Origin: Verrucomicrobiota bacterium
Lineage (GTDB): Bacteria > Verrucomicrobiota > Verrucomicrobiia > Limisphaerales > CAIQOK01
Assembly: GCA_031423695.1 (NCBI GenBank)
Contig: JANPGB010000592.1
Coordinates: 1-43,860, forward strand
Length of the DNA: 43,860 nucleotides
Reading direction: 5' to 3'
The position numbers were made by a program, and so were the translations under genes. Of the stretch, positions 9,769-43,453 are shown piece after piece. The notes under the pieces were generated by a model. It saw only the letters and a program-made list of their open reading frames with translations, ran no database searches and had not been told where the DNA came from. Positions within the stretch are counted from its first letter, which is position 1. Each line of letters starts with the position of its first letter.

Positions 9769-9793
9769 CCGTGCCCATGGGAAACTAAAGCGA

Positions 9794-26036: not shown

Positions 26037-27425
26037 ATGAGCGATGCCTCGCCAGACCCCTTCTCCTGCCTGATCGTGGACGACGATGCGGGGTTCGTCT
26101 CCATGCTCGCCAAAGTCGTGACCCAGGAGGGCGGGCGATCCACCCATTGCGAAAACCTCCAGGCCGCGCGGGCGGAAATCCAGCGCAACACTTTCGATCT
26201 GGTTCTCCTCGACAACCGTCTGCCAGACGGCACCGGCTACGAATTTCATCCCCAGCTCCAACGCTGCTGCCCCAACACCATCGTCCTCATGATCACCGGC
26301 GTCCCCGAACTGGCGCAGGCCATTGAACTCACCCGTAACGGCCTCTTCGATTATCTGACCAAGCCGCTGAACGTCGCCGATTTCACCGCGTCTTTGCGTC
26401 GTGCCAAACTGCGCCTCAGCCATGCCGATTCGGTGGATGCGGCTGATGAACTCATCGGCAGCTCCCCTGCCCTGCACGAAGCCATCAACACGTTGCGCCA
26501 GGTCGCCCAACATCCAACCACGCCGGTGCTTTTGCTCGGCGAAACCGGCACCGGCAAAGACCTCGCCGCGCGGATGCTGCATCGCCTCAGCTATTCGGCC
26601 AGCGCAACGCCGCCGCCGTACATCCCGCTCAACTGCTCCGCCGTGCCCGCTGAAATGTTCGAAGCCGAATTGTTCGGCAGTGAAAAAGGCGCTTACACCG
26701 GCGCGGACAAACGCCGCGTCGGCCTCATTGAAGGCGCGGAAGGCGGCACGTTGTTCCTGGACGAAATCACCGAAACGCCCCTGCCGCAACAGGCCAAACT
26801 GCTGCGTTTTCTGGAGTCCCGCGAGTATCGCCCGCTCGGCAGCAACACCATGCGGGAGTTCACTGGGCGCGTCGTGGCCGCAACGAACCGCTCCCTTCAG
26901 ACCGAGGTCCGGCAGGGACGCTTCCGTGAAGACCTGATGTTCCGCCTCAGCGTCGTCGTCGTACGCCTGCCCGCACTGCGCGACCATCCCGCCGACCTTG
27001 AACCCCTGACCGAAAAGCTGCTCGCCCAGCTCAGCGAAAAATACCGGCGCAAAAAGCTGTTCCTCAAACCGCCGGATCTGGCGGCGCTGCGCGAATATCG
27101 CTTCCCCGGCAACGTGCGTGAACTGCGCAATCTGCTTGAACGCTCCCTGCTGCGCACACCGGGGGATTCCCAATCGCTCGCCTTTGACCTCACCTGGCTG
27201 GGCAGCAGCATAGCGACCGAAGCCGCCGAGGCGCTGCCACCGCTGCCGACGGAGCGCCAACTCAGCGCCATCGAGCTCCAGGAGTATCGCCTCATCCAGC
27301 AGACCTTGCGCACGGAAGGCGGCGCGATCCGCCGCGCTGCGGCCAAGCTCGGCATCACGCATCAGGCGCTGTTGCGGCGTCTGGAAAAATGGCCGGAGCT
27401 GCGCCAGGTGCTTCCGCATTCGTGA
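26037..27425 (+). CDS. NtrC-family sigma-54-dependent response regulator (REC-AAA+-HTH)
   Basis: REC domain (LIVDDD...DLVLLDNRLPDGTG...MITG), Walker A GETGTGKD, GAYTGA loop (26688-26705), Walker B GGTLFLDEI, FREDLMFRL, and a C-terminal Fis-type HTH (AAAKLGITHQALLRRL). Confidence 0.9.
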   Translation: MSDASPDPFSCLIVDDDAGFVSMLAKVVTQEGGRSTHCENLQAARAEIQRNTFDLVLLDNRLPDGTGYEFHPQLQRCCPNTIVLMITGVPELAQAIELTRNGLFDYLTKPLNVADFTASLRRAKLRLSHADSVDAADELIGSSPALHEAINTLRQVAQHPTTPVLLLGETGTGKDLAARMLHRLSYSASATPPPYIPLNCSAVPAEMFEAELFGSEKGAYTGADKRRVGLIEGAEGGTLFLDEITETPLPQQAKLLRFLESREYRPLGSNTMREFTGRVVAATNRSLQTEVRQGRFREDLMFRLSVVVVRLPALRDHPADLEPLTEKLLAQLSEKYRRKKLFLKPPDLAALREYRFPGNVRELRNLLERSLLRTPGDSQSLAFDLTWLGSSIATEAAEALPPLPTERQLSAIELQEYRLIQQTLRTEGGAIRRAAAKLGITHQALLRRLEKWPELRQVLPHS

Positions 27426-27478
27426 TTGAAAAGATTTTTTGTGCGCGCCGATTTCCCTCCACTTTCCAGAACGGCAGT

Positions 27479-27516
27479 GGACCGCTTTTGGTCCGCTCGT
27501 GGTCTGAGAACGGACC
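27479..27516. promoter_or_regulatory. Phased array of four GGWCY pentamers (candidate activator-binding UAS)
   Basis: GGACC 27479, GGTCC 27490, GGTCT 27501 and GGACC 27512, with starts exactly 11 bp apart. TGGTCCG (27489-27495) and CGGACCA (27511-27517) form a 7-bp inverted repeat. The array lies about 200 bp upstream of the -24 element at 27711. Its function is inferred only. Confidence 0.35.
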
Positions 27517-27709: not shown

Positions 27710-27725
27710 CGGCACTTCGACTGCT
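27710..27725 (+). promoter_or_regulatory. Sigma-54-type -24/-12 promoter upstream of the FecR/TPR/barrel gene
   Basis: CGGCACTTCGACTGCT has GG at 27711-27712 and GC at 27723-27724, the canonical spacing. It sits only about 20-35 nt before the candidate starts (ATG 27743 or 27758), hence the lower confidence. Confidence 0.45.
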
Positions 27726-27742: not shown

Positions 27743-30700
27743 ATGTCCCGAACCAAAATGTTATTGAAGGCCCGCGCCATTTTTTTCGTGGTGGTGGCCT
27801 TCGCGGTTTGCCTGACTGCCAACCCAAGCCAGGCCCAGGCGCCCTCCGCCCCCGCTGCAAACGACTTTGCCAGCCGGCTTGTCGGATTCGCCGGCAAAGT
27901 CGAAGTCACGCTCCCAGCCACCAACGACTGGCGGGCCGCGATCACCAACCAGCTGCTGCATCCCGGCGACCGTCTTCGCACCGTCGCCGACAGCCGCGCC
28001 ACGCTGCTTCTGTCCGACCGCAGCGTCATTCGCGTCAACCAGTCCACGCTGATTGAAATCCAGCCACCGACTCAACCTGCGCGCCGCCGTTTCAGCCTCA
28101 AGCACGGCGCGCTCTACTTTCTGAATCGTGAGAAACCCGCGGCCGTCGAGTTTGAAACCCCGCTCGCCACCGGCGCGATTCGTGGCACGGAATTTGTGCT
28201 CACCGTCGCCGAGTCCGACAACACGACGATGCTCGCGCTGCTCGACGGCGCGGTTCAACTCCGCACCCCCGCTGAGCAACTCAATCTCGCCAGCGGCCAG
28301 CAGGCGCTGGTGCAAGCCGGCCAGCCCGCCAAGCTCACTGCGGTGCTGCCCGCCGCAAATCTCATTCAGTGGTGCTTTTATTATCCCGGCATTCTCAACC
28401 CCGCCGACCTATTGTTCACTGATGCCGAAAAAACTGAGCTGACAAAATCTCTCGCCGCCTACGCGGGCGGTGATTTGCTCGCAGCCCTTGCCGAAGCGCC
28501 CGCAGACATCCTGGCGGGGTCCGCTGCAAGGCAACTTTACTGCGCGGCCCTCAAGCTCGGTGTGGGTCAGGTGGAATCTGCTGAAGTGCTGCTCGCGCCG
28601 TTGACGAATGCACCGCTCGCCACCGCACTCCGCGAACTCATCGCGGCGGTCAAGTTTCAGGAGATCACCACGCCCGGCACGCCCGCGACCAGCAGCGAGT
28701 GGCTCGCCCGTTCCTACTATCTCCAATCGCGTTCACAACTTCCCGCCGCGCTCGCTGCGGCGAAGCGTGCGACCGAACTCACTCCAAGTTTCGGCTTCGC
28801 CTGGGCGCGCGTGGCGGAACTGGAATTTGGTTTCGATGACCGCCGCGGCGCCCGCGCCGCATTGCAGCGCGCGCTTCAGTTGTCGCCCCATCATGCCCAG
28901 GCCGTCGCGCTCGAAGGCTTCCTCGCGCTCGACGAAAATCATCCGCGCGCCGCGCTGGATAAGTTTGATCGCGCGCTTGCGCTCGACGGCGCATTGCCCA
29001 ACGCCTGGCTCGGTCGGGCGCTGGCGCATGAACAACTCGGCGACACTGGAGCCGGCCAGCGTGAACTCCAGACTGCCGCCGCGCTTGAACCGAATCGCGG
29101 ATTGTTTCGCAGCTACCTCGGCAAGGCGTGGAGCCAGTCGGGACTGGACCAGCTGGCGGAAAAGGATTTCGCCCGCGCGCAGGCGCTCGACCCCGCCGAT
29201 CCGACCGCGTGGCTTTATTCCGCATTGCATCGCCACCAGACGCATCAGATCAACGACGCCGTGCGCGACCTGGAACACTCGCGCGAGTTGAACGACAACC
29301 GCAGCGTGTTCCGCTCGCGCCTGCAACTGGACCGCGACCGCGCCGCCCGCAGCGCGGATCTCGCGGGGATTTACGATGCGGCGGGCATAGTCGAAGTCAG
29401 CGAGCGCGCCGCCAGCCGCGCCGTGCAGGATTCCTATTCTGATTTTGCCGGGCACCTGTTTCTCGCCCAAAGCCTGGAAGGCCGCGAAGATCCGCACCGG
29501 TTTGATCTGCGTTTTGAAACGGCGCGGGAAAGCGAGCTGCTCCTCGCGAACCTGCTCGCGCCGCCGGGCGGCGGCAATCTCTCGCAACTGCTCCCGCAGC
29601 AGGACCACCTCCAATACTTCGACAGGCGCCCGATTGGATTCAGCTCGTTGACTGAATACCGCAGCGGCGGGGACTGGAGCCAATCCGCCACGGTCTTCGG
29701 CCATGCCAAAGGCTTCAGCTACGCGCTCGACACGCAATACGTTTCCGAAAACGGCCAGGGTCCAAACCGCGATCTGGAGGCCCGCCAGTTTTCCTTCCAA
29801 GCCAAACAGCAGATAACGCCCAACGACAGCGCCTACTTTCAGGCGAGTGATTTTCGCGGCGAGAGCGGCGATGTGGCACAGCATTACGATCCGGCGAAGG
29901 TCATCGCCGGCCTGCGGGCCAGGGAGAAGCAGAGTCCGAATTTGTTCCTTGGCTGGCACCACGAATGGTCGCCAGGCAGCCACACTTTGCTGTTGTTCGC
30001 GCGGCTGACCGACCGGCTCGCTTTGACCAATCCACAACCGAGCGTGCTCTTCATGCGGCAGAACGGGACCGCCCTCACCAGCGTGCAACCCGACCCATTC
30101 TTCACGTTGCAACAGGAGAGCAAATTCACGCTTTATTCCGCCGAGGCGCAGCAGATCTGGGAATCCTCCCGGCACGCGCTCATTATCGGCGGCCGCTATC
30201 AACAGGGTTCGGTGGACACGCATTCGACGCTGACCCGCATTTTTGGCGCTACGGAAGATCAAACCGTTTCGCCGTCCCTGGAACGTCTTAATGGCTACGG
30301 CTACTACCAATGGCGGCCCGACGCCGCCTTCCACCTGACGGCCGGCCTGAGCTACGACGAGATTGCGTTCCCGCGAAATGTGGATCTCCCGCCGATTCGC
30401 GGCGAGGAGGAACGCCGCTCGCTGTTTGGCCCGAAGGTGGGCTTCACCTTGCGGCCATGGCGCGATGGCTGGCTGCGCGGCTCGTGGACCCGATCGCTCG
30501 GCGGACTTTATTTCGACAACAGCATCCGGCTGGAGCCCGCGCAGGTGGCCGGCTCCACCAGCGCATTTCGCAGTCTGCTTCCCGAATCCACCGAAGGCCT
30601 CGTGCCCGGTTCGCAGATCGAGACTTGGACGCTGGGTTTCGACCAGTCGTTGCCAAGTGCAACGTATTTTGGCCTCGGCGCAGAGCTTCTCAAATCCGAC

Positions 30701-31240
30701 GGCGCGCGCGACGTGGGCGCGTTCACGAACTCCATTGCCTTCATTCCCGTGCCCGACGGGCCGGCAGCGACACGGCAGACGCTCAACTTTGAGGAGCTGA
30801 GTTATTCAGCCTACGTGAACCAGCTCATCGGCCGATGCTGGTCCGCCGGCGCGCGCTATCGCGTCAGTCAGGCGGAACTCACCGGACGTTTCCCGGAACT
30901 GGCGGGCGTCGCCGGAGTCAACGCTTTGAATCAGGACGAACGCTCGGTGCTGCATCAGGCGCAGATCTTCCTGCTGTTCAACCATCCGAGCGGCGTCTTC
31001 GGCGGCTGGTCCTCGTCGTGGTACCGACAGAGCAATGTGGGCTACACGCCGGATCGTCCCGGTGACAACTTCTGGCAGCATGACATTTTCGCCGGGTACC
31101 GCTTTCCGCACCGGCACGCGGAAATCCGGCTCGGCGTGCTGAACCTGACCGACCAAGACTGCCAGCTGAACGAGTTGAACCTGCATTCCGAACTCGCACG
31201 GCACCGCACCTTCACCGCGTCGTTGCGGCTGAACTTTTAA
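27743..31240 (+). CDS. Secreted fusion protein: FecR-like domain + TPR repeats + C-terminal outer-membrane beta-barrel (TonB-receptor-like C-terminus)
   Basis: 1165 aa with signal peptide AIFFVVVAFAVCLTANPSQAQA. The FecR-like region is GKVEVTLPATNDWRAAI...GDRLRTVADSRATLLLSDRSVIRVNQSTLIEI...TPLATGAIRGTEF. TPR-like helical repeats span roughly residues 300-560. The C-terminal half has alternating beta-strand patterns and ends LGVLNLTDQDCQLN...FTASLRLNF, an OMP-style terminal Phe. Confidence 0.85.
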   Translation: MSRTKMLLKARAIFFVVVAFAVCLTANPSQAQAPSAPAANDFASRLVGFAGKVEVTLPATNDWRAAITNQLLHPGDRLRTVADSRATLLLSDRSVIRVNQSTLIEIQPPTQPARRRFSLKHGALYFLNREKPAAVEFETPLATGAIRGTEFVLTVAESDNTTMLALLDGAVQLRTPAEQLNLASGQQALVQAGQPAKLTAVLPAANLIQWCFYYPGILNPADLLFTDAEKTELTKSLAAYAGGDLLAALAEAPADILAGSAARQLYCAALKLGVGQVESAEVLLAPLTNAPLATALRELIAAVKFQEITTPGTPATSSEWLARSYYLQSRSQLPAALAAAKRATELTPSFGFAWARVAELEFGFDDRRGARAALQRALQLSPHHAQAVALEGFLALDENHPRAALDKFDRALALDGALPNAWLGRALAHEQLGDTGAGQRELQTAAALEPNRGLFRSYLGKAWSQSGLDQLAEKDFARAQALDPADPTAWLYSALHRHQTHQINDAVRDLEHSRELNDNRSVFRSRLQLDRDRAARSADLAGIYDAAGIVEVSERAASRAVQDSYSDFAGHLFLAQSLEGREDPHRFDLRFETARESELLLANLLAPPGGGNLSQLLPQQDHLQYFDRRPIGFSSLTEYRSGGDWSQSATVFGHAKGFSYALDTQYVSENGQGPNRDLEARQFSFQAKQQITPNDSAYFQASDFRGESGDVAQHYDPAKVIAGLRAREKQSPNLFLGWHHEWSPGSHTLLLFARLTDRLALTNPQPSVLFMRQNGTALTSVQPDPFFTLQQESKFTLYSAEAQQIWESSRHALIIGGRYQQGSVDTHSTLTRIFGATEDQTVSPSLERLNGYGYYQWRPDAAFHLTAGLSYDEIAFPRNVDLPPIRGEEERRSLFGPKVGFTLRPWRDGWLRGSWTRSLGGLYFDNSIRLEPAQVAGSTSAFRSLLPESTEGLVPGSQIETWTLGFDQSLPSATYFGLGAELLKSDGARDVGAFTNSIAFIPVPDGPAATRQTLNFEELSYSAYVNQLIGRCWSAGARYRVSQAELTGRFPELAGVAGVNALNQDERSVLHQAQIFLLFNHPSGVFGGWSSSWYRQSNVGYTPDRPGDNFWQHDIFAGYRFPHRHAEIRLGVLNLTDQDCQLNELNLHSELARHRTFTASLRLNF

Positions 31241-31292: not shown

Positions 31293-33998
31293 GTGCCGAG
31301 CCGACTCGAATCAAAACATCCGCGCAGCCTGACCTTGGCAGGCCTCATCGTTGTGCTGGCGCTCGTGAGCGGGTGGCTGCTCCTGCCGGAGTCGCGACCG
31401 GGCGAGGTCCTCGCACGCGCGAGTTACGACTGGTCACAATCCTTCCTCCCACCCGTCCCGCTGAGCAACTCTCCGGTGGTCCTGGTTTATCTCGACCTTG
31501 ATTCACACCTCCGCGAAAAACAAAATCCCGCCGAACCCTGGAGTCGCGCCCTGCACGCGCGACTAGTTCGCCGGCTCACCGAGGCGGGGGCCAGGGCCAT
31601 CGGGTTCGACATCATCTTCGCCGGGCCGAGCGCGGACCTGGCGGCGGATCGGGAGTTGGCCGAGGCCATTCACGCCAACGGCCGCGTCGTTCTCGCCGCC
31701 GAAATCAACCGCTCCAGCCGCGGCACCGCGCAAGTGGAAGGCATCAAGTCGCTGCAGCTCTCCATGCCCGCAAAAACCTTCCTCGACGCCGCCGCCGCGT
31801 GGGGCGTGGCCAACGCGCGCGTGGACGACGACTTCATTGTGCGGCGGCATTTCCACGGTTTTCCTGAACAGCACCAGCCCAGTCTCACGCTGGCAACGGC
31901 GCAATTGATCGGCTTGCCGCTCGCGTTGGCCGACACCGATCTGCTGCCGGCAAAATGGCTTCGTTACTACGGCCGGGCGCTGGCGTTGCCACACGTCAGT
32001 TACAGCAGCGCCCTCCATCGCGACGAGGTGAAAGATGAATTCTTCCGCGACAAGATAGTCTTGGTCGGCGCGCGACCGATGGCCGGGACATTTGGGGAGC
32101 GCAAAGATGAATTTCGCAATCCGCTGTCGGCGTGGGGCGACCAGGAACTCTTCATGCCCGCCGTGGAAGTTCACGCCACGCAACTGCTCAACCTGATGCA
32201 CGGAGACTCGCTGCGTCGCCTGCCGCCACTGGCGGAGTTGTTGATGCTCGCGCTGACGGCGGGGCTGTTTGGCTGGCTGCTGTATCGTTTCCGGCCCTTC
32301 CCGGCGGCGGGAATGGCGTTGGCGGGCGAAGTCGTGGTTTTCGCCGTCGTTGCATTTGCGCTGCCGGCGCAACGGGTTTGGTTTCCGTGGCTGATCGTCA
32401 GCGCGGTGCAAATCCCCATCGCGCTTGCGGCCTCGGTGCTTTACCAATCGCTCGAATGGTATCGGCAGAAACGGCGGCTCGAGGCGCAACGCCGCGCCGA
32501 CGAGGTGAAGATTCGCGAGCAAGCCGCGCTCATCGAAAAGGCGCAGGACGCCATTCTGGTTCAGGATTTGCAGGGCCAAATCAACTATGCCAATCCAAGC
32601 GCGGAAAAGCTTTTCGGCTGGAGCGCCAGCGAGCTTCAGCAGGAGGGAGCGGCGCGGCGGCTGTTCGCTCCGAGTCACAAACAGTTTGCCGAGGCGATCC
32701 AAGCCACCCACGCCACCGGCGAATGGCAGGGTGAATTGCGGCCGTCCACGCGCGCCGGCCGCACGCTCATCGTGGAAAGCCGCGGCACGCTCATCAAAGA
32801 CGAATGCGGCCGGGCGATTTCCGTGCTGCTCATCAACACCGATGTCACCGAGCGGAGACAGCTCGAAGCCGAATCGCTCCGGGCGCAGCGCCTGGAAAGC
32901 ATCGGCGCGCTGGCCGGCGGGATGGCGCATGATTTGAACAATGCGCTGTCGCCGATTTTGATGGGCCTGCAACTGTTGCAGAAGGAGCGGCAGGACGAAG
33001 AGACGCGGCGCATGCTGGCGGTAATGGAGTCCAACACGCACCGCGGCGCGGATATGGTCAAGCAGGTGTTGCTCTTTGCGCGCGGACGCGACGGCGAGAA
33101 AGAACCGCTCGCCCTCGGCAGCCTGGTCCACGAAATGGAGCGCATCGTGCGGCAGACGTTTCCGAAAGCGATCAACGTCGCCGCACTTGTGCCCGCCGAC
33201 CTCTGGCCCGTGCTCGGCAACGCGACGCAACTGCATCAGGTATTGCTCAACCTTTGCGTCAACGCCCGCGATGCGATGCCGCGCGGCGGTGAACTCACCC
33301 TGGCCGCCGATAACGTCGAACTGACACCCGCCGAGGCCACGGGGATTCCGCAGGGCGCGCCCGGACGCTATGTCATGCTGCTCGTGTCGGACACGGGGAA
33401 CGGGATTGCGCCGGAAGTTATGCCGCGCATCTTCGAGCCGTTCTTCACGACGAAACCGGTCGGTGAGGGAACGGGCCTCGGCCTTTCGACCAGCGCGCGG
33501 ATTGTCAGCCAGCACGGCGGTTTCATGAATGTGAAAAGCGAGCCGGGCCGCGGCGCGACCTTCGAGCTTTACCTGCCATGCGCCACGATTGCGCCGACGC
33601 CGGAAACTCAACGTGCGAGTTTTGCCGAAGCACCGCGTGGCGGCGGCGAGATGATACTGCTGGTGGACGACGAACAGGCGCTCCGAGAAATGATTTCCCG
33701 CACGCTCACGGACCAGGGTTATCAAGTCACCACGGCAACTCACGGCGCGGAAGCGCTGCTGCACTTGAACCACTCAGGGGACTCCGTCCAACTGGTGCTG
33801 CTGGATCAGGAAATGCCCGTGATGGACGGCCGCGCAACCTTGACCGCCCTCCGCACCCGCTGGCCAAAGCTCCCCGTCATTCTGATGAGTGGTAAAATCG
33901 GGCCGGAAGCATTGCCGCACACCACCACGCTGGGAAAACCGTTTCAACTCCATCAACTGCTGCAAGCGGTCGCCGCCCAGTGCCACGTCGGCAAATAG
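31293..33998 (+). CDS. CHASE2-domain hybrid sensor histidine kinase (TM-CHASE2-3TM-PAS-HisKA-HATPase-REC)
   Basis: GTG start with an N-terminal TM helix (LTLAGLIVVLALVSGWLLL). The periplasmic CHASE2-like region is VVLVYLDLDS...IGFDIIFAGPS...IVLVGA, followed by three TM helices. PAS is AQDAILVQDLQGQINYANPSAEKLFGW, and the NtrB-type H-box is GMAHDLNNALSPI. It also has LLNLCVNARDAM and GEGTGLGLS, and a C-terminal REC (ILLVDDE...LVLLDQEMPVMDG). Confidence 0.9.
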   Translation: MPSRLESKHPRSLTLAGLIVVLALVSGWLLLPESRPGEVLARASYDWSQSFLPPVPLSNSPVVLVYLDLDSHLREKQNPAEPWSRALHARLVRRLTEAGARAIGFDIIFAGPSADLAADRELAEAIHANGRVVLAAEINRSSRGTAQVEGIKSLQLSMPAKTFLDAAAAWGVANARVDDDFIVRRHFHGFPEQHQPSLTLATAQLIGLPLALADTDLLPAKWLRYYGRALALPHVSYSSALHRDEVKDEFFRDKIVLVGARPMAGTFGERKDEFRNPLSAWGDQELFMPAVEVHATQLLNLMHGDSLRRLPPLAELLMLALTAGLFGWLLYRFRPFPAAGMALAGEVVVFAVVAFALPAQRVWFPWLIVSAVQIPIALAASVLYQSLEWYRQKRRLEAQRRADEVKIREQAALIEKAQDAILVQDLQGQINYANPSAEKLFGWSASELQQEGAARRLFAPSHKQFAEAIQATHATGEWQGELRPSTRAGRTLIVESRGTLIKDECGRAISVLLINTDVTERRQLEAESLRAQRLESIGALAGGMAHDLNNALSPILMGLQLLQKERQDEETRRMLAVMESNTHRGADMVKQVLLFARGRDGEKEPLALGSLVHEMERIVRQTFPKAINVAALVPADLWPVLGNATQLHQVLLNLCVNARDAMPRGGELTLAADNVELTPAEATGIPQGAPGRYVMLLVSDTGNGIAPEVMPRIFEPFFTTKPVGEGTGLGLSTSARIVSQHGGFMNVKSEPGRGATFELYLPCATIAPTPETQRASFAEAPRGGGEMILLVDDEQALREMISRTLTDQGYQVTTATHGAEALLHLNHSGDSVQLVLLDQEMPVMDGRATLTALRTRWPKLPVILMSGKIGPEALPHTTTLGKPFQLHQLLQAVAAQCHVGK

Positions 33999-35243: not shown

Positions 35244-35334
35244 GACAAGTGAAGATTTCAAGAGGCCCGCCGGGCTGCCAGCTTAAAATCGCGCAGGCCG
35301 GGCGAAAGCTTGGGGACTCAAGCCGGACGTAACC

Positions 35335-36006: not shown

Positions 36007-36178
36007 AAACGGAAATCAACGCACGACTGTCGCAGCAAATCGGCCCTACTGATACACCTATTTTTAGAATTATCCCAGCGCCAGCGCCAACTACCAGGAA
36101 CGCTGATTTGGAGCCGGGAAGGAATTCGCGGGTCGGTGAAAACGCTAAGCGTGGGTTGAGTTTGAGCGCGGATGGAGA

Positions 36179-36922: not shown

Positions 36923-37236
36923 AATAAAATTAAACGATTGCCCAAAGTTTGATCCTTCCCCGGCACGAAATCAACAACCGAGCGGGGAACGAAACATCAA
37001 TTAAAGCAGCGAAGCCGGGCAATCCGGATTCAACCTTTGACAAAATCGGGGGAGACAGAGAACCACCATTCGCCCGAAGCAGACAGTTCACTGCCACAGC
37101 GCAGGTTGGTTCAGGTCTGCCCCAGAAACCGGCCAGCAATCTTGGTGAGGTTGAAAAAAATCCCGGGAGCATTCCTTGATACCCTCCGTCCAACGACGCG
37201 TGACTCGGTGCAACCACAAATAACGAAAGACAAAAT

Positions 37237-38373
37237 ATGAAAGCCAGCTTCAGCAATTTATTCACGCTCGCCGTCGCGGTGTCGCTCGTCGCGAGCGCCG
37301 GGGCGAAGGCGGAACCACGGTTCAGAACCCAAAAACCGCTCGTGCAAGTCGCCATCCTGATCGACACCAGCAACAGCATGGACGGACTCATCGGCCAGGC
37401 GAAAAGCCAGCTGTGGAAGATCGTCAACGAGTTCAACCACGCGCGGCAGGATGGCCAGATGCCCGAGGTGCAGGTCGCGCTGTTTGAATACGGTAACAAC
37501 AGCTTGTCCGCGCAGGCAGGCTGGATTCGCAAGGTGTCGGACTTCACGACCGACCTCGACTTGATCTCGGAAAAACTCTTCGCGTTGAGAACCAACGGCG
37601 GCGAGGAATACTGCGGCTGGGTCATCAAGGACGCGCTCGACCGGCTGGAGTGGAGTCCTTCGCCGCGGGCCTACAAGGCCATCTTCATCGCGGGCAACGA
37701 GCCGTTCACACAGGGCCCGGTGGATTACACCGACCCGTGCAAGGCCGCCCGGGCGCGCGGCATCATTGTAAACACGATCCATTGTGGCGACGAGCGCACG
37801 GGAGTGGACACGATGTGGCGCGACGGCGCGCGGCTGGCGGACGGGAAATTTCTGGTCATCAACCAGGATCGGGCCGTGGCCTATGTCGAAGCGCCGCAGG
37901 ACAAGGAGATCGCAAAATTGAGCAGCGACTTGAACAGCACTTATCTCGCCTATGGTCGCGATGGTGCGGAGAGTGTTGTGCGGCAGGAAATGCAGGACCG
38001 GAACGCCGCCACCGTGGCATCGGCGGGCGCGGTGGTGGCGCGTGCGGTGGCCAAGTCGTCGGCGCATTACAGCAACAGCAAATGGGACTTGGTGGACGCC
38101 GCCAAGGACAAGGATTTCAAACTGGATGCCTTGAAGGAGGCCGAACTGCCCGCGGCGATGCAGGCGTTGCCGCCCGCCGCGCGCAAGGAGTTCGTTGAGG
38201 AGAAAGCGCAGGAGCGCGGCGAGTTGCAGACCAGGATCAACACGCTCAATGCCGCGCGCGAAAAATACGTCGCCGCGAAGATGAAGGAAATCGTCACCAC
38301 GAACACGCTCGACAGTGTCGTCATCACCACCGTGCGCGAACAGGCGCGCACGCGGCAATTCACGTTCGATTGA
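37237..38373 (+). CDS. Secreted von Willebrand factor type A (vWA) domain protein
   Basis: Signal peptide (LFTLAVAVSLVASAGAKA), MIDAS DxSxS (AILIDTSNSMDG), ...RTNGGEEY..., IFIAGNEP and VNTIHCG. The C-terminal third is a charged helical region. Confidence 0.8.
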   Translation: MKASFSNLFTLAVAVSLVASAGAKAEPRFRTQKPLVQVAILIDTSNSMDGLIGQAKSQLWKIVNEFNHARQDGQMPEVQVALFEYGNNSLSAQAGWIRKVSDFTTDLDLISEKLFALRTNGGEEYCGWVIKDALDRLEWSPSPRAYKAIFIAGNEPFTQGPVDYTDPCKAARARGIIVNTIHCGDERTGVDTMWRDGARLADGKFLVINQDRAVAYVEAPQDKEIAKLSSDLNSTYLAYGRDGAESVVRQEMQDRNAATVASAGAVVARAVAKSSAHYSNSKWDLVDAAKDKDFKLDALKEAELPAAMQALPPAARKEFVEEKAQERGELQTRINTLNAAREKYVAAKMKEIVTTNTLDSVVITTVREQARTRQFTFD

Positions 38374-38396
38374 GCCATCCCCCCGCCCTGCCCTCT

Positions 38397-38433
38397 CCGC
38401 ACCGCCGGCCACCGACGGTGCGGAATTTTTTTT
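38397..38433 (+). terminator. Rho-independent terminator after the vWA gene
   Basis: CCGCACCG (38397-38404) pairs perfectly with CGGTGCGG (38416-38423) across an 11-nt loop, followed by AA and eight T (38426-38433). Confidence 0.7.
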
Positions 38434-38630
38434 GGCGCAGCCTCCCACGCACTCAGCCACATCCGGAGAAACGGTGAGCCAAAAAAAATCTGGGCAAAAC
38501 CCGCCTTCACTTCCATCAGCGGTTCGCTATCGGACCGGGTTGGTCCGGAACAAACACGTCCAGCGTCGCCTTCATAAAGATGCAGCGGGCGAAACCGAGA
38601 AATTTTGGATTTTTCCAGTGCCTGCTAAGT

Positions 38631-38646
38631 TGGCATGTGAACTGCA
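38631..38646 (+). promoter_or_regulatory. Sigma-54-type -24/-12 promoter upstream of the Ig adhesin / DUF3570 / ApbE genes
   Basis: TGGCATGTGAACTGCA versus the consensus TGGCACG-N4-TTGCW. GG is at 38632-38633 and GC at 38644-38645. It lies about 55 nt upstream of ATG 38699 and about 200 nt downstream of the vWA terminator. Confidence 0.6.
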
Positions 38647-38698
38647 ATCTCCTGACCTACGAACCGAATTCACAATTGCGCTCTCAGCTTATAGTTGC

Positions 38699-41600
38699 AT
38701 GCAGTATTATTTTTATCGTCCTGTCCACGTCAGATTGCCCTCCTCTCCCGCGCGCTACGGCAGGGAACAGATTCTATTCGCCATACTGTGGATGGTTTGC
38801 GTTGTTTCTGTTCCCGCCGCGCCGATGATGGAGGAGGGATTCAATTATCCCAACGGCAGCAACCTGGCCCAGAACGCTCCGTGGGCCGGCGGCAGCGGCG
38901 CCTCCCTAAGCGTGGTGAGCGGCAATCTGTGGCTCCCGGGTTTGGGCGAGACTGCGCCCGCCGGCAACATGCTGAAAGTTGGCGGCGGCGTAAGCCGGAC
39001 GGTGTATCGGAATTTTGCCAGCACTCCGGTGACCAATGGCGCGCTGTATTTCTCGGCATTGATCAAATGCACGCTGCCGCCAACAAATTCCCAGCCAATG
39101 GCTTTTTTCCAAACCAGCGGCTCCACCGATTTTACCGCCAGCGACAATCCGATGTCGCTGTATATTCTCCAAGCGAACAACGGGTATTGCTTTCGCGTTG
39201 CCGAACACGGGGAAAACTCCCAATTATCAAAAACACTGGCCGTCAACACCACGCATTTGATCGTGGTAAAATATGGTTTTCGAGTCGGCAATCAGGATCG
39301 AGTCATTCTGTTTATTGATCCCATACCCGGCGGGAATGAGCCAACGACACCGGATGCCGCCATCTCTGACGTAATGTTTCCCAATTTACGGGTGATGGGG
39401 TTTTTCTCACCAAGCCTTGCCAGCCAGGGCAGCTGGAATTTTGACACCTTGCGCATCGGCACCAACTGGGCGGACGTGACGCCGGTGCCGACAGCTTTGA
39501 TTCTCAGTGGACCGCAGGACCAGGCGGCCTGTTTCGGCAAAGGCCTGACCTTCAGCGTCGCGGCGCTGGGCACGGCCCCGTTCAGTTATCATTGGCGGAC
39601 CAACGGCGTGTTCGTGCCTGGCGCGACCAATGCGGTATTCGCCGTTCCTAATCCCACCGCCCGCGACGCGCTGAATGGCTTTGACGTGGTGGTGCAGGAC
39701 GCGTTTGGCTCCGCCACCAGCCGGCTGGCAGGAATCACGTTCAGCACCAACCCTGTCGCCATCCTGACCCCGCCAACAAATCAGGTGGTCTTGCCTGGTG
39801 TTGCGAGCGTCACATTCGAAGTGGCGGTGTCCGGCGATGCGCCGGTGAGCTTTCAGTGGCGCGCGAACGGCACGGCTATCGCCAACGCGACCAACAACAG
39901 CTACTCACTCGTCAATCCAACCATGGCGGATCAAACCACCGCCTTCGATGTGGTGGGGGTCAATCCGTGCGGTGCGGTGACCAGCAGCCCGCCGGTGTTC
40001 GCCTTGTTTCCAAATGCGTTTTACGCCGCCACCGACAATGGCCCGGGCTTTTTTGCGGGAGAAATCCTGACCCTGATCAACCGGAGCGGCATGACCATCA
40101 ATGTCTGGTCGTCGCCCAATCTCAGTCGGCCGCTTCCGCTATGGGATGCGGAAGGTCCACTGTTTGAGGTGCCGCTGAATGACGGCAGCGGCAACAGCCA
40201 GTATTCCCTGAACGTCGTGCCCGCCGCCTCGCCAACTTACTACGTCGCCGGAACCGGCGTGGACTGGCCGTACTTGTCGCCGATTCCCGTGGTGTGGCTG
40301 ACGACCAGTGACTATGTCACCTTTAGTTTGCAGGGCACGAACAAGATTGCGGATGCGTCGGGCGTGTTGAGCGATCCGGTTCCTCCGGGGATCACGCAAG
40401 GTCCGGCGAGCCAGAATGTCTGGCTGGGAACCAACGCGCAATTCACGGTCGCCGCCAGTGGTTCGGGGCCTTTCTCCTACCAATGGTGGTTTAACGCGGC
40501 GCCCCTTCCTGGCGCGAACCTGGCCGCCTTCAAACTGACCAGTGTTTCAAGGACCAACTCGGGTGATTACTACGTCGTGGTGACGAGCGCTTTCGGCAGC
40601 ATCACCAGCAGCATCGCCACGTTAGGGGTCATCACCCCCTTCTATGCCGCGTACGACAACGGCCCGGGATTTTTCATTGGAGAAATCCTGACGCTCAACA
40701 ATCCGAGCGGGATGATTATCAATGTCTGGTCGTCATCCACTCTAAGCCAGCCGCTCCCGCTCTGGAATTCGGAAGGTGAGATGTTTCAGGTGCCGTTGAA
40801 TGACGGCAGCGGCACCAGCCAATACTCCCTGAACGTCGTGCCGGCCGCCTCGCCGACTTATTACATCGCCGGCATCTCGGTCTCCGGGCCGTATCCGCCC
40901 GGCATCCCGGTCACCTCGCTTACGACGGACGACTATGTGAACTTTGCGGTGGCGCAAAACCAACTGCCGGTCGGCCCCGGCGGCCTGTTGGCGCTGCCCG
41001 CCCCGCCGGCGCTCACCCAGCAACCCGCCCGCCTGGCAGTCATCGCCGGCAACCCGGCGGAATTTCTCGCCACCGCCACCGGGAGCGGGCTGCTCTATTT
41101 CCAGTGGCGCTTCAACACAAACATCGCGGTCGAGGGCGGCACCAATTCGAGCCTCTTGATTACCACGAGCACCCCGGCCCACGCCGGAAATTATTTCGTG
41201 GTGGTGACGAACAACTATGGTAGTGCGACCAGCCAGGTAGCCGCATTGACAGTGCTGCCGCCGCCTGCACTCCTCGGCACCCAAACCGCCGCCGGCTTTC
41301 AACTCACGGGCGCGGGTGTACCCGGCGACATGTATTTCGCCCTGGCGGCGACCAATCTGAATCCGCCGGTGACCTGGCAGACCGTGGCGACGAATGTGGC
41401 TGACACAAACGGATTGATTCAATTCGTCGATGGTGCCACCCAGATCTCGACGATGAAATTTTATCGGCTGGCGTTCCCCTCCGTGTTGCGAATGCCCCCC
41501 GTGATTCTTCAGCAGCCGACCAACCGCTCGGTGCTGACCGGAACTTCGCCGGGATTCAGCGTAATCGCCGCCGGTCAGGCCGTGCTGAGCTATCAATGGT

Positions 41601-41977
41601 TTGCCCGCTCCAACACGACGCTGGCCGGGGCGACAAACTCCACGCTCACTCTGGGGCAGACCAGCATGCTCAACAACGGCAGGCAATATCAGGTTGTGGT
41701 AACCAACAGCTGGGGCAGCGTCACGAGCAGCGTGGCCACGGTCACGATCCTGCCCCTGCCGCAGTTGCAGGCGCAGTCGCTTTCCAACCGGCTGCAACTC
41801 ACCGCCCAGGCCGTGCCGGGCGACGCCTATCGCCTGCAGGCCAGCACCAGCCTGACGCCTCCCGTGGCGTGGACCACCCTCGCCACCAATTTGGCGGACG
41901 CCCTGGGCTGGGTTCAGTTTTCGGTCACAAATATCCGCACCGCGCCCGTCCGCTTTTACCGCCTCGCAACTCCGTGA
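38699..41977 (+). CDS. Giant secreted Ig-repeat adhesin-like protein (ConA/LamG-like N-domain, five or more Ig I-set units, duplicated novel domain, two FYRLxxP modules)
   Basis: The open frame starts at 38315, but that stretch spans the vWA stop, a terminator and the promoter. ATG 38699 gives MQYYFYRPVHVRLPSSPARYGREQILFAILWMVCVVSVPAAP. Ig units are marked by PFSYHWRTNG, VSFQWRANG, FSYQWWFN, LYFQWRFN and LSYQWFAR, each followed by a G.Y.VVVTN-type strand. Confidence 0.8.
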   Translation: MQYYFYRPVHVRLPSSPARYGREQILFAILWMVCVVSVPAAPMMEEGFNYPNGSNLAQNAPWAGGSGASLSVVSGNLWLPGLGETAPAGNMLKVGGGVSRTVYRNFASTPVTNGALYFSALIKCTLPPTNSQPMAFFQTSGSTDFTASDNPMSLYILQANNGYCFRVAEHGENSQLSKTLAVNTTHLIVVKYGFRVGNQDRVILFIDPIPGGNEPTTPDAAISDVMFPNLRVMGFFSPSLASQGSWNFDTLRIGTNWADVTPVPTALILSGPQDQAACFGKGLTFSVAALGTAPFSYHWRTNGVFVPGATNAVFAVPNPTARDALNGFDVVVQDAFGSATSRLAGITFSTNPVAILTPPTNQVVLPGVASVTFEVAVSGDAPVSFQWRANGTAIANATNNSYSLVNPTMADQTTAFDVVGVNPCGAVTSSPPVFALFPNAFYAATDNGPGFFAGEILTLINRSGMTINVWSSPNLSRPLPLWDAEGPLFEVPLNDGSGNSQYSLNVVPAASPTYYVAGTGVDWPYLSPIPVVWLTTSDYVTFSLQGTNKIADASGVLSDPVPPGITQGPASQNVWLGTNAQFTVAASGSGPFSYQWWFNAAPLPGANLAAFKLTSVSRTNSGDYYVVVTSAFGSITSSIATLGVITPFYAAYDNGPGFFIGEILTLNNPSGMIINVWSSSTLSQPLPLWNSEGEMFQVPLNDGSGTSQYSLNVVPAASPTYYIAGISVSGPYPPGIPVTSLTTDDYVNFAVAQNQLPVGPGGLLALPAPPALTQQPARLAVIAGNPAEFLATATGSGLLYFQWRFNTNIAVEGGTNSSLLITTSTPAHAGNYFVVVTNNYGSATSQVAALTVLPPPALLGTQTAAGFQLTGAGVPGDMYFALAATNLNPPVTWQTVATNVADTNGLIQFVDGATQISTMKFYRLAFPSVLRMPPVILQQPTNRSVLTGTSPGFSVIAAGQAVLSYQWFARSNTTLAGATNSTLTLGQTSMLNNGRQYQVVVTNSWGSVTSSVATVTILPLPQLQAQSLSNRLQLTAQAVPGDAYRLQASTSLTPPVAWTTLATNLADALGWVQFSVTNIRTAPVRFYRLATP
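40019..41260 (+). repeat. Intragenic tandem duplication (2 x 621 nt) inside the adhesin gene
   Basis: The unit starting FYAATDNGPGFFAGEILTLINRSGMTINVWSS (40019) recurs as FYAAYDNGPGFFIGEILTLNNPSGMIINVWSS (40640), exactly 621 nt (207 codons) later. By eye, the first ~240 nt of each unit are roughly 80 percent identical at the nucleotide level. Confidence 0.8.
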
Positions 41978-41989
41978 TTTGGATGACGC

Positions 41990-43453
41990 ATGTCCTTGTA
42001 TCCCGCCAACCCAGCTACCGCCGAAACCGGGGACCCCGTGCCGCAGTCGTCACGCGCGTTTCAACGCGCGCGACGATTGCCACAGTTCCCAGGCAAGCGA
42101 GACCTACTCATGCTGTTGCTGGTGGTGGCGCTCATTGCCGGACGAATCGGACGTGCGTCCGCCGCGGAAAACGAAATGGGTTACCGACGGGAGTTTTACC
42201 GCGAGGACGACAACCGGATCAGCGTGGACACAGACTCCGCGTTCTGGGACGTGGGGCTCAGCGCGCATGTTCGTTTGCGCGGGACCTACACGCTCGATTC
42301 CATCTCCGGCGCGACCCCGACCGGCGCGCCGCCGCAGTCGCAGTGGCCGTTCGTCACCTACGACCGCCTCTACAAAAACGCCTATGCGCAGGCTTACACC
42401 GGCGCGTTCAACCAGTTTGTTGCCGCCAACCAGATCTTCGTGGATCAAGGCTACCAGACTTACCAGCAGATGACCAACGTTGCGGCGATGGTAGCCCAGA
42501 GCACAGCCCCAGGCGTCGCTAACAATAGTGCCGGCGCCTCGTATCGCGGCATCACCAACAATCCAAACTTTCGGAACCAGTCCGTTCCGCTGACGCAGAT
42601 GCATGATCGGCGACAGGGTTTTTCCATCGAGGTTCCGGTCGCGTGGGGCATTCATGAGCTGACGCCCTCGTTTTCCTACAGCGACGAGAGCGACTACGAA
42701 TCATTTGGCGGCGCCTTGGTTTATTCCCTCGCGCTAAACAAAAAGAACACCACGCTGACCGCTGGTTACTCCCACCATTCCGACGATGTCCGGGACGAAA
42801 ATTTCAAGTGGCAGGACAAGACGTCGGACGAATTTCTGCTCGGCGTGGTGCAACTCCTCAATCCCAAATCCTACCTGACATTCAACCTGACATTCGGCAA
42901 CGACGCCGGCTATCTGAGCGATCCTTACCGGGCCGTGATGGTCATCGGCAACCCCGACTTTCTTCAGTCCAATCCGGACGACGCGGCACTATTCGTCGAA
43001 AAGCGTCCGCGCAGCCGGATCAAAGGGGTCGCCCATCTTTCCTACACGCGCTTTATCGACCGCTTCAACGGCAGTCTGGAAACCAGCTACCGTTACTTTC
43101 ACGATTCCTGGGGCATTGCCTCCCACACCCTGACGCTGGACTGGCACCAAAAGCTGGGCCGGAACATCGTGCTGAGCCCGTCGTTCCGCTACAGCAATCA
43201 AAGCGCGGCGGACTTTTATTACGTGCTGGTGCCGGACTACGCCGGGCTGCCGGCTTATTACTCTTCCGACTATCGCCTGACGCATTTTGAAAGTTTCGGG
43301 CTGGGCCTGAATTTCACCTGGCGGATCACGCCTTTCCTTTCCCTGGACTTGAGCTATCTGCGTGACGTAATGCACGGACTGGACGGCATCACTTCGCAGA
43401 GCGCCTTTCCTTCCGCCAACGTCGGCAGCGCAGGACTAAGAATATGGTTTTAA
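41990..43453 (+). CDS. DUF3570-family outer-membrane beta-barrel protein with ApbE flavinylation motif
   Basis: Signal-like LLMLLLVVALIAGRIGRASAAE, then EFYREDDNRISV and LDSISGATPTG (DSISGAT at 42296-42316). Strand-like repeats run throughout, and the OMP-type C-terminus is AGLRIWF. An alternative start is ATG 42110. It begins 12 nt after the adhesin stop. Confidence 0.75.
   Translation: MSLYPANPATAETGDPVPQSSRAFQRARRLPQFPGKRDLLMLLLVVALIAGRIGRASAAENEMGYRREFYREDDNRISVDTDSAFWDVGLSAHVRLRGTYTLDSISGATPTGAPPQSQWPFVTYDRLYKNAYAQAYTGAFNQFVAANQIFVDQGYQTYQQMTNVAAMVAQSTAPGVANNSAGASYRGITNNPNFRNQSVPLTQMHDRRQGFSIEVPVAWGIHELTPSFSYSDESDYESFGGALVYSLALNKKNTTLTAGYSHHSDDVRDENFKWQDKTSDEFLLGVVQLLNPKSYLTFNLTFGNDAGYLSDPYRAVMVIGNPDFLQSNPDDAALFVEKRPRSRIKGVAHLSYTRFIDRFNGSLETSYRYFHDSWGIASHTLTLDWHQKLGRNIVLSPSFRYSNQSAADFYYVLVPDYAGLPAYYSSDYRLTHFESFGLGLNFTWRITPFLSLDLSYLRDVMHGLDGITSQSAFPSANVGSAGLRIWF

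What the first reader, a model, noticed from the sequence alone, without database searches (positions are those of the whole stretch)
38631..38646. Near-consensus sigma-54 promoter drives the Ig adhesin - DUF3570 - ApbE gene string
TGGCATGTGAACTGCA has the invariant GG and GC at the canonical spacing, plus the flanking T, CA and TGCA. It lies between a strong terminator (38397-38433) and the first plausible start of the adhesin (38699). The downstream gaps are tiny: 12 nt to DUF3570, and a 10-nt overlap into apbE. One sigma-54 transcript could therefore cover all three genes. An A/T tract (AAATTTTGGATTTTT, 38600-38614) and a GGACC/GGTCC palindrome (38532-38546) lie upstream, laid out like a UAS followed by a bend and then the promoter. 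The only bEBP in the window is at 26037, which makes it a candidate regulator.
Basis: partly seen in the sequence, partly recalled or inferred. Interest (0 to 1): 0.65.

Follow-up and report, generated by a model that had tools for sequence, protein, structure and literature searches.

The report
Conserved sigma-54 promoter with its enhancer
The motif is very probably a real sigma-54 promoter: the same promoter, and the same upstream CGGACC enhancer, recur in front of the equivalent lectin/Ig–DUF3570–ApbE operon in about a dozen distantly related Verrucomicrobiota genomes, always beside the same sensor kinase/activator genes. It is an ordinary kind of element that defines a new regulon.

Summary

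**Chance.** Window-wide, the motif is no commoner than chance (8 two-mismatch matches against 11.5 expected). A match this good on the right strand of this 325-nt intergenic region has P≈0.003.

**Comparative evidence (decisive).**
- Homologues of the first gene (43-56% aa identity, otherwise unalignable upstream DNA) carry TGGCAY-N5-YTGCT upstream in 14 of 17 non-redundant loci.
- Top-scoring matches occur once in 405 kb of background.
- In 13 of 16 loci, 2-4 copies of CGGACC lie 58-190 nt further upstream.
- In the window, CGGACC clusters occur at only two places. One is here. The other is upstream of a second conserved sigma-54-type promoter (27710-27725), in front of the FecR-TPR and CHASE2-kinase genes.

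**Regulator.** In relatives, the bEBP–FecR/TPR–CHASE2 kinase genes sit directly beside the lectin/Ig–DUF3570–ApbE(–redoxin–DsbD) operon. This supports the bEBP at 26037 as the regulator.

**Not shown.** There is no transcript data, and rpoN is not in the window. The A/T tract is not conserved in position.

**Verdict.** This is a well-supported new member of a known kind. It gives the first regulatory handle on a DUF3570 flavinylation system.

The parts
38396..38433 (+). Intrinsic terminator of the upstream VWA gene (stem 38396-38424, then U8). It insulates the operon from upstream transcription.
   Evidence: -26.7 kcal/mol, z -3.7.
38531..38547 (.). Predicted enhancer (UAS): CGGACC-N5-GGTCCG inverted repeat, centred about -118 from the predicted start site.
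   Evidence: CGGACC occurs 2-4 times at -58..-190 in 13 of 16 homologous loci, against a background of 0.16 per 300 bp. It is one of only two such clusters in the 43.9-kb window.
38600..38614 (.). A/T tract AAATTTTGGATTTTT between enhancer and promoter. A role as a bend or IHF-type site is not established.
   Evidence: Present. The position of A/T-rich patches differs in orthologues.
38631..38646 (+). Sigma-54 promoter TGGCATGTGAACTGCA (-24 GG at 38632-33, -12 GC at 38644-45). Predicted start site about 38657, giving a 42-nt leader.
   Evidence: Homologues carry TGGCAY-N5-YTGCT at the equivalent place.
38699..41977 (+). First gene: secreted ConA-like lectin domain plus Ig-repeat protein (1092 aa).
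   Evidence: Pfam Ig_3/I-set. Homologues. AF2 model pLDDT 73.5 with Foldseek hits to ERGIC-53, calreticulin and legume lectins.
41990..43453 (+). DUF3570 protein with an SGAT flavinylation-type motif at aa 106-109 and a C-terminal Phe (outer-membrane-barrel-like ending). Presumed substrate of ApbE.
   Evidence: Pfam PF12094, E 5e-65. Motif. DUF3570 shown to be flavinylated by ApbE in PMC8238504.
43444..43860 (+). apbE (FAD:protein FMN transferase) 5' part. It overlaps the DUF3570 gene by 10 nt and is cut by the window end.
   Evidence: Pfam PF02424. Sequence. Same overlap in the public gene call.
26037..27425 (+). NtrC-type bEBP (REC with D59, AAA+ sigma-54 interaction domain with GAYTGA, Fis-type HTH). 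Predicted activator.
27478..27516 (.). Second enhancer: TGGACC / GGTCCG / GGTCTG / CGGACC cluster just downstream of the bEBP gene.
   Evidence: Orthologues have CGGACC-N6-GGTCCG followed by CGGACC at the same place.
27710..27725 (+). Second sigma-54-type promoter CGGCACTTCGACTGCT in front of the FecR-TPR and CHASE2-kinase genes. Predicted start site about 27736.
   Evidence: CGGCAY-N5-MTGCTC is conserved in L001, L005, L022, L023 and L027.
27743..31240 (+). Exported FecR-domain/TPR protein, predicted partner of the sensor kinase.
31293..33998 (+). CHASE2-PAS-HisKA-HATPase-REC hybrid sensor kinase.

Best explanation
38631-38646 is a genuine sigma-54 (RpoN) promoter.

Proposed mechanism:
1. RNA polymerase-sigma-54 binds the -24 GG / -12 GC element as a closed complex.
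2. The NtrC-type enhancer-binding protein encoded at 26037-27425 assembles on the CGGACC-N5-GGTCCG enhancer at 38531-38547, about 118 bp upstream of the predicted start site (~38657). It does so once phosphorylated on its receiver domain, through the CHASE2-PAS hybrid kinase (31293-33998) working with the exported FecR-TPR protein (27743-31240).
3. The activator contacts the polymerase by DNA looping and uses ATP hydrolysis (GAYTGA loop) to open the promoter.
4. The transcript covers the lectin/Ig surface protein, the DUF3570 flavinylation substrate and ApbE. By synteny it probably also covers a TlpA-like redoxin and DsbD beyond the window end. The regulon therefore switches on an extracytoplasmic flavin/thiol redox module.
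5. The same enhancer-plus-promoter pair at 27478-27516 / 27710-27725 puts the FecR-TPR and kinase genes under the same control, giving positive feedback.

Shown here: the sequence features, their conservation and their co-occurrence.
Inferred: sigma-54 binding, the start site, which protein binds CGGACC, the phosphorelay, and the extent of the transcript.
For: **1. The site itself.**
- Intact GG-N10-GC with flanking T, CA and TGCA.
- Joint best score in the window with a GG/GC-weighted consensus.
- P about 0.003 for such a match on the + strand of 38374-38698.
- No sigma-70-like site on the + strand between the terminator and the ATG.

**2. Conservation of the promoter.**
- 20 loci encode homologues of the first gene at 42-56% aa identity over most of the query; L036, also scanned, is only about 30%.
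- 15 of the 20 scanned loci have a motif scoring >=24 and 12 score >=26 (14 and 11 of 17 non-redundant loci). Background is one hit >=26 in 405,483 positions.
- Clade consensus is TGGCAY-N5-YTGCT with variable spacers.
- The flanking DNA is otherwise unalignable.

**3. Enhancer.**
- CGGACC occurs 2-4 times at -58..-190 in 13 of 16 loci, against 0.16 expected per 300 bp.
- The only two CGGACC clusters in the window are at 38531/38542 and 27490/27511. Orthologous loci show clusters at exactly the two equivalent places.

**4. Link to the regulator.**
- bEBP-FecR/TPR-CHASE2 kinase lies directly beside the operon, either divergent (L001, L005, L022, L023, L024) or colinear (L002/L026, L027, L028, L030, L031, L033).
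- The three loci without CGGACC (L003, L029, L034) also lack the cluster.
- The HTH of the orthologous bEBPs is invariant.

**5. Activator competence.**
- It has REC, Sigma54_activat (E 3e-57), AAA lid and HTH_8 domains.
- GAYTGA occurs naturally in the active activator HrpS (PMC3105312).

**6. Operon.**
- 12-nt gap and 10-nt overlap, and no enrichment of internal terminators.
- The same gene order with gaps of 22-50 nt recurs in relatives, continuing into redoxin and DsbD.

**7. Second promoter.** It is conserved in five orthologous loci.

**8. Phylum.** Sigma-54 regulons are predicted in Verrucomicrobiota (PMC12316311).
Against: - No RNA data exist for this organism, an uncultured freshwater-sediment lineage. 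The start site and rpoN dependence are therefore untested.
- rpoN itself is not in the window, and the genome was not available.
- The window-wide count of consensus matches is not above chance.
- The window's site is an outlier among its homologues: G after TGGCAT, and TGCA instead of the clade-invariant TGCT. A matrix trained on the orthologues scores it poorly. Both deviations fit the general sigma-54 consensus.
- In this genome a 4.7-kb block (DUF2264, GTPase, two ORFs, VWA) separates the regulator cluster from the operon.
- The kinase is a hybrid with its own receiver, so an Hpt step may be needed, and none is assigned.
- The A/T tract is not positionally conserved.
- Nothing shows directly that the bEBP, rather than another protein, binds CGGACC.
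Confidence: 0.8

Rival explanations
1. The match is fortuitous. The operon is transcribed from an unrecognised sigma-70-type (or other) promoter in the 265 nt between the terminator and the ATG.
For: Two-mismatch matches to the consensus are as frequent as chance in the window. The site scores poorly against an orthologue-trained matrix. Promoter types of Verrucomicrobiota are poorly known, so the sigma-70 scan could miss one.
Against: The same bipartite element lies at the same relative place in 14 of 17 non-redundant homologous loci, with a background of about 1 per 405 kb. It always sits downstream of the same CGGACC cluster. Local P is 0.003.
Confidence: 0.05
2. The promoter is sigma-54-dependent, but it is activated by a different enhancer-binding protein encoded elsewhere. 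CGGACC is then the site of another factor, and the bEBP at 26037 controls only its own cluster.
For: The genome outside the window is unknown. Here the bEBP gene is 11 kb from the promoter. Paralogous loci (L003, L029, L034) have sigma-54 motifs without CGGACC, so other activators act on this gene family.
Against: The same CGGACC cluster precedes both the operon promoter and the promoter inside the bEBP cluster. Adjacency of the bEBP cluster to the operon is conserved in 11 or more loci. Presence of the enhancer tracks presence of the cluster. The HTH is invariant across orthologues.
Confidence: 0.1
3. The sigma-54 transcript covers only the lectin/Ig gene. DUF3570-apbE have their own start within the 3' end of that gene or in the 132 nt before the alternative DUF3570 start at 42110.
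For: A public gene call starts DUF3570 at 42110, leaving a 132-nt gap. Operon content varies: L027 lacks apbE here, and L004 has apbE upstream of the lectin/Ig gene.
Against: There is no terminator-like site in the junction and no enrichment of such sites overall. Orthologues need the upstream start because they have no internal Met before the hydrophobic core. Gaps of 22-50 nt and the order lectin/Ig then DUF3570 are conserved. Neither a CGGACC cluster nor a sigma-54 motif lies before DUF3570.
Confidence: 0.12

Closest known systems
Classical enhancer-dependent sigma-54 promoters with NtrC-family response regulators (glnAp2/NtrBC, ZraSR, AtoSC)
   Same: A -24 GG / -12 GC element with canonical spacing. 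An activator with REC, AAA+ and Fis-type HTH domains. Repeated activator sites about 100-150 bp upstream. The activator also controls its own sensory genes. (general mechanism from PMC7057263 and established knowledge.)
   Different: The bEBP reaches no NCBIfam equivalog cut-off: best is ntrC at 298 bits against a 559-bit cut-off. It is therefore not an orthologue of any named regulator. I could not match the CGGACC enhancer hexamer to a described bEBP site. The sensor is a CHASE2 hybrid kinase. The activator loop is GAYTGA in this genome.
Response regulator - FecR-domain protein - CHASE2 histidine kinase triad (Burkholderia 'BiofilmReg' operon, PMC5192318)
   Same: The same three-gene architecture and order: regulator, exported FecR-domain protein, CHASE2-PAS kinase.
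   Different: In Burkholderia the regulator is a CreB/OmpR-type winged-helix protein, and the FecR protein carries LysM. Here the regulator is a sigma-54 activator, the FecR protein is 1165 aa with TPR repeats, and the kinase is a hybrid with a C-terminal receiver. An Ig-repeat gene precedes the regulator.
DsbD-type DUF3570 flavinylation gene clusters (Meheust et al. 2021, eLife, PMC8238504)
   Same: DUF3570 with an [S/T]GA[S/T] motif lies next to ApbE. In relatives a thioredoxin-like protein and DsbD follow.
   Different: There is no DUF4266 gene in the operon; a large lectin/Ig secreted protein leads it instead. Only one of the two [S/T]GA[S/T] motifs is found. No regulation was described for these clusters in that paper's passages read here.
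HrpS-type activators with a natural GAYTGA loop (PMC3105312)
   Same: Tyr replaces Phe in the sigma-54-contacting loop of an otherwise complete AAA+ domain.
   Different: HrpS lacks a receiver domain and works with HrpR. Here the Tyr is a single-lineage change: the three orthologues aligned (L001, L022, L023) keep GAFTGA.

Membership tests
Sigma-54 (RpoN) dependent promoter | Invariant GG (-24) and GC (-12) dinucleotides separated by exactly 10 nt | tested here: met
   GG 38632-33, GC 38644-45. Same spacing in 14 homologous loci.
Sigma-54 (RpoN) dependent promoter | Extended consensus TGGCACG-N4-TTGCW | tested here: met
   10 of 12 specified positions match; mismatches are C6T and T12C. It deviates from the clade-specific TGCT.
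Sigma-54 (RpoN) dependent promoter | Correct strand and distance upstream of a gene, with no read-through from upstream | tested here: met
   53 nt from the motif end to ATG 38699. A terminator lies at 38396-38433.
Sigma-54 (RpoN) dependent promoter | Cognate bEBP with an AAA+ sigma-54 interaction domain and GAFTGA loop | tested here: met
   PF00158, E 3e-57. The loop is GAYTGA here and GAFTGA in orthologues. GAYTGA is functional in HrpS.
Sigma-54 (RpoN) dependent promoter | Upstream activator sequences about 80-200 bp from the promoter | tested here: met
   A CGGACC cluster is conserved in 13 of 16 loci. Binding itself was not tested.
Sigma-54 (RpoN) dependent promoter | rpoN present in the genome | not testable with these tools
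   Not in the window, and the rest of the genome was unavailable. The phylum is reported to have sigma-54 regulons.
Sigma-54 (RpoN) dependent promoter | Start site 11-13 nt downstream of the GC, and rpoN/bEBP-dependent expression | not testable with these tools
   No RNA runs hold this sequence.
DsbD-type DUF3570/ApbE flavinylation system | DUF3570 protein adjacent to ApbE | tested here: met
   10-nt overlap.
DsbD-type DUF3570/ApbE flavinylation system | Two [S/T]GA[S/T] flavinylation motifs in DUF3570 | tested here: inconclusive
   One motif (SGAT, aa 106-109) was found; a second exact match was not.
DsbD-type DUF3570/ApbE flavinylation system | Thioredoxin-like protein and DsbD in the cluster | tested here: inconclusive
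   Present downstream in L001, L022 and L027. The window ends inside apbE.
DsbD-type DUF3570/ApbE flavinylation system | DUF4266 small CXC protein in the cluster | tested here: not met
   There is no room for such a gene between the operon genes in the window or in L022/L031. It was not searched for elsewhere.
RR - FecR - CHASE2 kinase signalling triad | Adjacent genes for a response regulator, an exported FecR-domain protein and a CHASE2 histidine kinase | tested here: met
   The regulator class differs (NtrC-type, not CreB-type).

The most novel reading that the evidence does not exclude
Across Limisphaerales-like Verrucomicrobiota, a dedicated CHASE2 kinase / FecR-TPR / sigma-54 activator module recognises a previously undescribed CGGACC enhancer. 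It is the on-switch, with positive feedback, for a DUF3570-ApbE-redoxin-DsbD extracytoplasmic flavin/thiol redox system led by a lectin/Ig surface protein. This would give the first regulatory and physiological handle both on DUF3570 systems and on what CHASE2/FecR pairs sense.
Probability: 0.55. Interest if true: 0.55.

Novelty: new member of a known kind. Interest (0 to 1): 0.45.

Why it matters
Sigma-54 promoters with upstream enhancers are textbook elements, so the promoter itself is not surprising. The value lies in what the comparison revealed.
- **A coherent regulon.** It is phylogenetically footprinted in an uncultured verrucomicrobial order: two promoters, one enhancer motif, one activator and one sensor pair.
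- **Function of DUF3570.** DUF3570 proteins are known to be flavinylated by ApbE, but their function is unknown (PMC8238504). Their strict coupling here to a CHASE2/FecR sensory system and a lectin/Ig exported protein suggests a surface-signal-induced extracytoplasmic redox function.
- **Testable predictions.** The bEBP should bind CGGACC, expression should depend on rpoN, and DUF3570 should be co-induced with the sensor.
- **CHASE2.** Its ligand is unknown, so a defined output promoter gives a reporter for finding one.

Tried and rejected
1. Window-wide consensus counting showed no enrichment, so it cannot support the claim by itself.
2. A position weight matrix trained on the 14 orthologous promoters over-fits spacer and flank positions. 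It ranks the window's own site poorly. I rejected it as a scanner but kept it as evidence that the window's site is an outlier within its clade.
3. A genome-contig scan with the single DUF3570 protein found nothing. An alignment-based query on the N-terminal domain of the first gene worked.
4. The sigma-54-like match at 24176-24191, upstream of the Ig gene that precedes the bEBP, is left unresolved. Orthologous upstream regions have no sigma-54 motif and instead share TTGAYT-N17-TAcGGT. No CGGACC cluster lies nearby. The window has an overlapping TTGAGT-N17-TAGCTT.
5. The A/T tract as a conserved bend or IHF site was rejected as a conserved feature. A/T-rich patches exist upstream of most promoters but at different offsets.
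6. RNA evidence: no RNA runs were found. The DNA contigs laid on the region were identical to the window, so they were uninformative about constraint.
7. Extending the operon in this organism failed. Exact-protein look-ups found only a 2.7-kb contig or nothing.
8. The SGAS motif at aa 66 of the lectin/Ig protein is not conserved in homologues, so it is not proposed as a flavinylation site.

Full report
**1. Observation**

- TGGCATGTGAACTGCA lies at 38631-38646 on the + strand, with GG at 38632-33 and GC at 38644-45.
- It differs from TGGCACG-N4-TTGCW at two non-invariant positions.
- A strong hairpin plus U8 (38396-38433; -26.7 kcal/mol, z = -3.7) follows the stop codon of a VWA-domain gene (37237-38373).
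- The first start codon after the predicted start site is ATG 38699.
- Downstream genes are an Ig-repeat protein (38699-41977), a DUF3570 protein (41990-43453, E 5e-65) and the 5' part of apbE (43444 to the window end).
- The 12-nt gap depends on using ATG 41990. A public gene call uses 42110. Orthologues have no internal Met before the hydrophobic core, so they need the upstream start.
- The 10-nt overlap into apbE is confirmed.
- Only one bEBP is encoded in the window.

**2. Is it more than chance?**

- As a bare consensus match it is not. The window holds 8 matches with up to two mismatches, against 11.5 expected.
- With a score that weights the invariant GG and GC, the site ties for best in the window.
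- A first-order Markov simulation of the 325-nt intergenic region gives P = 0.003 for an equally good site on the + strand.
- The sigma-70 scan finds nothing on the + strand between the terminator and the ATG.

**3. Comparative evidence**

The organism is an uncultured Limisphaerales-like member of the Verrucomicrobiota from freshwater sediment.

*Promoter.*
- I aligned homologues of the N-terminal 400 residues of the first gene (43-52% identity). I used the alignment to fetch 59 loci from genome and metagenome collections.
- Twenty loci were scanned: 19 encode homologues at 42-56% identity, plus L036 at about 30%. In 15 of them, the 560 nt around the gene start contain a sigma-54 motif scoring >=24 of 28; 12 score >=26.
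- After removing duplicates and truncated loci, this is 14 and 11 of 17.
- The remaining 405,483 positions of the same loci contain one hit at >=26.
- Aligned on the motif, the sites read TGGCAY-N5-YTGCT with freely varying spacers. The surrounding DNA does not align. This pattern is expected of a sigma-54 promoter and of little else.

*Enhancer.*
- The hexamer CGGACC occurs 2-4 times, 58-190 nt upstream of the -24 element, in 13 of 16 loci. The expectation is 0.16 per 300 bp.
- A search for clusters of this hexamer finds only two in the 43.9-kb window: this one and 27490/27511.
- In each orthologous locus that contains both regions (L001, L005, L022, L023, L027), clusters lie at exactly the two equivalent places and nowhere else.

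*Second promoter.*
- The 27490/27511 cluster lies just after the bEBP gene and upstream of CGGCACTTCGACTGCT (27710-27725). That site is 17 nt before the ATG of the FecR-TPR gene.
- The arrangement is conserved in L001, L005, L022, L023 and L027: CGGACC-N6-GGTCCG, a further CGGACC, then CGGCAY-N5-MTGCTC.

*Synteny.*
- The bEBP, FecR-TPR and CHASE2 kinase genes lie directly next to the lectin/Ig-DUF3570-ApbE string. They are either divergently transcribed (L001, L005, L022, L023, L024) or colinear (L002/L026, L027, L028, L030, L031, L033).
- In the window a 4.7-kb block (DUF2264, a GTPase, two ORFs, VWA) has been inserted between them.
- The three homologous loci that have a sigma-54 motif but no CGGACC (L003, L029, L034) also lack the regulator cluster.
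- The orthologous bEBPs are 73-74% identical, with an invariant helix-turn-helix.

**4. The genes**

- **Activator.** It has a receiver (Asp59), a sigma-54 interaction AAA+ domain, a lid and a Fis-type HTH. It reaches no equivalog cut-off. Its sigma-54-contacting loop is GAYTGA, where orthologues have GAFTGA. HrpS naturally has GAYTGA and is active (PMC3105312).
- **Kinase.** It is CHASE2-PAS-HisKA-HATPase-REC.
- **FecR protein.** It has a signal peptide and TPR repeats.
- **First operon gene.** It has a signal peptide. An AF2 model (mean pLDDT 73.5) shows a concanavalin-A-like lectin domain, with Foldseek hits to ERGIC-53, Emp46p/47p, calreticulin and legume lectins at E about 1e-5 to 1e-6. 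Ig domains follow.
- **DUF3570.** It carries an SGAT motif and ends in Phe. DUF3570 proteins are experimentally flavinylated by ApbE and typically sit in DsbD/thioredoxin clusters (PMC8238504).
- **Operon extent.** In L001, L022 and L027 the operon continues into a TlpA-like redoxin and DsbD. The window's operon probably does too, but the window ends inside apbE.
- No enrichment of terminator-like sites occurs inside 38600-43860.

**5. Mechanism (inferred)**

1. An unknown extracytoplasmic signal is sensed by the CHASE2 kinase with the FecR-TPR protein.
2. Phosphotransfer activates the bEBP. An Hpt step may be involved, because the kinase is a hybrid.
3. The bEBP assembles on CGGACC sites centred about -118 and remodels the closed sigma-54 holoenzyme complex at 38631-38646.
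4. Transcription starts near 38657 and runs through the lectin/Ig, DUF3570 and apbE genes.
5. The same activator drives the FecR-TPR and kinase genes from 27710-27725, giving positive feedback.

**6. Weak points**

- There is no transcript evidence, and DNA contigs from related samples are identical.
- rpoN was not seen, and binding of the bEBP to CGGACC is untested.
- The window's promoter deviates from the clade-invariant TGCT and has G after TGGCAT.
- The A/T tract is not positionally conserved.

**7. Comparison with known systems, and verdict**

- The element works like, and meets the testable criteria of, an enhancer-dependent sigma-54 promoter of the NtrC class.
- The signalling triad resembles the Burkholderia RR-FecR-CHASE2 operon (PMC5192318), but with a sigma-54 activator.
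- The cargo is a DsbD-type DUF3570 flavinylation cluster, led by a lectin/Ig protein instead of DUF4266.
- It is a new member of a known kind. Its moderate interest comes from the regulon and enhancer motif it defines, not from the promoter as such.

Noticed in passing
window 27478-27516 and 27710-27725: A second CGGACC/GGTCCG enhancer cluster and a sigma-54-type promoter (CGGCACTTCGACTGCT, with C instead of T before GG) lie in front of the FecR-TPR/CHASE2 kinase genes. They are conserved in five orthologous loci. The predicted leader is only about 7 nt to ATG 27743, or about 22 nt to ATG 27758.
   Followed up: yes
window 27577-27655: A near-perfect hairpin with 30-nt arms (97% complementary, 19-nt loop) is inserted between that enhancer and promoter. 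It stretches their distance to about 200 nt, against about 50-60 nt in orthologues. It is unique in the window and absent from all fetched loci. Its origin is unknown (REP/MITE-like?).
   Followed up: partly
window 24170-24198: A sigma-54-like match TGGAACGCGACTTGCG (24176-24191) lies 75 nt upstream of the Ig-repeat gene (ATG 24266) that precedes the bEBP. It overlaps a sigma-70-like TTGAGT-N17-TAGCTT. Orthologues show no sigma-54 motif there but share TTGAYT-N17-TAcGGT, and no CGGACC cluster is nearby. Which promoter is used is unresolved.
   Followed up: partly
window 34008-38373: Relative to all orthologous loci, a 4.7-kb block separates the CHASE2 kinase from the sigma-54 operon. It holds DUF2264 (-), an EngB-like GTPase (-), two unannotated ORFs (-) and a VWA-domain gene (+) with its own terminator. 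The enhancer and promoter moved with the operon side.
   Followed up: partly
window 26670-26690 (bEBP residues 218-223): The sigma-54-contacting loop is GAYTGA in this genome but GAFTGA in the three orthologues compared. The same genome also has TGCA instead of the clade's TGCT at the -12 element of the operon promoter. Whether the two changes are connected is unknown.
   Followed up: partly
window 9579-9594: TGGCATGTCTTTTGCC is the other top-scoring sigma-54-like site in the window. It lies inside the 3' part of a prepilin-type (N_methyl) gene (8869-9768). It is about 230 nt upstream of the likely start of a second N_methyl protein in ORF 9491-10648.
   Followed up: no
window 38699-41977: The lectin/Ig protein is 1092 aa against about 550-690 aa in most homologues. 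It contains an internal duplication: DNGPGFF modules at aa 446 and 653, and FYRL-ending modules at aa 921 and 1086. L027 has a similarly long version (1101 aa).
   Followed up: no
L027 11243-15134; L004 7016-12861: Operon content varies among relatives. L027 goes from DUF3570 straight to redoxin and DsbD with no apbE. L004 has apbE upstream of the lectin/Ig gene and neither a sigma-54 motif nor a CGGACC cluster. L031 has an extra Ig-repeat gene between apbE and the redoxin.
   Followed up: partly
window 38425-38505: A T8 run (38426-38433) and an A8 run (38482-38489) form a 15-nt-arm inverted repeat. A minus-strand terminator-like hairpin follows (38505-38493), although no minus-strand gene reads into it.
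   Followed up: no
window 41990-42110: The public gene call for DUF3570 starts at 42110 (447 aa). That start would remove the positively charged n-region of the signal peptide. Orthologues support the longer form starting at 41990.
   Followed up: yes
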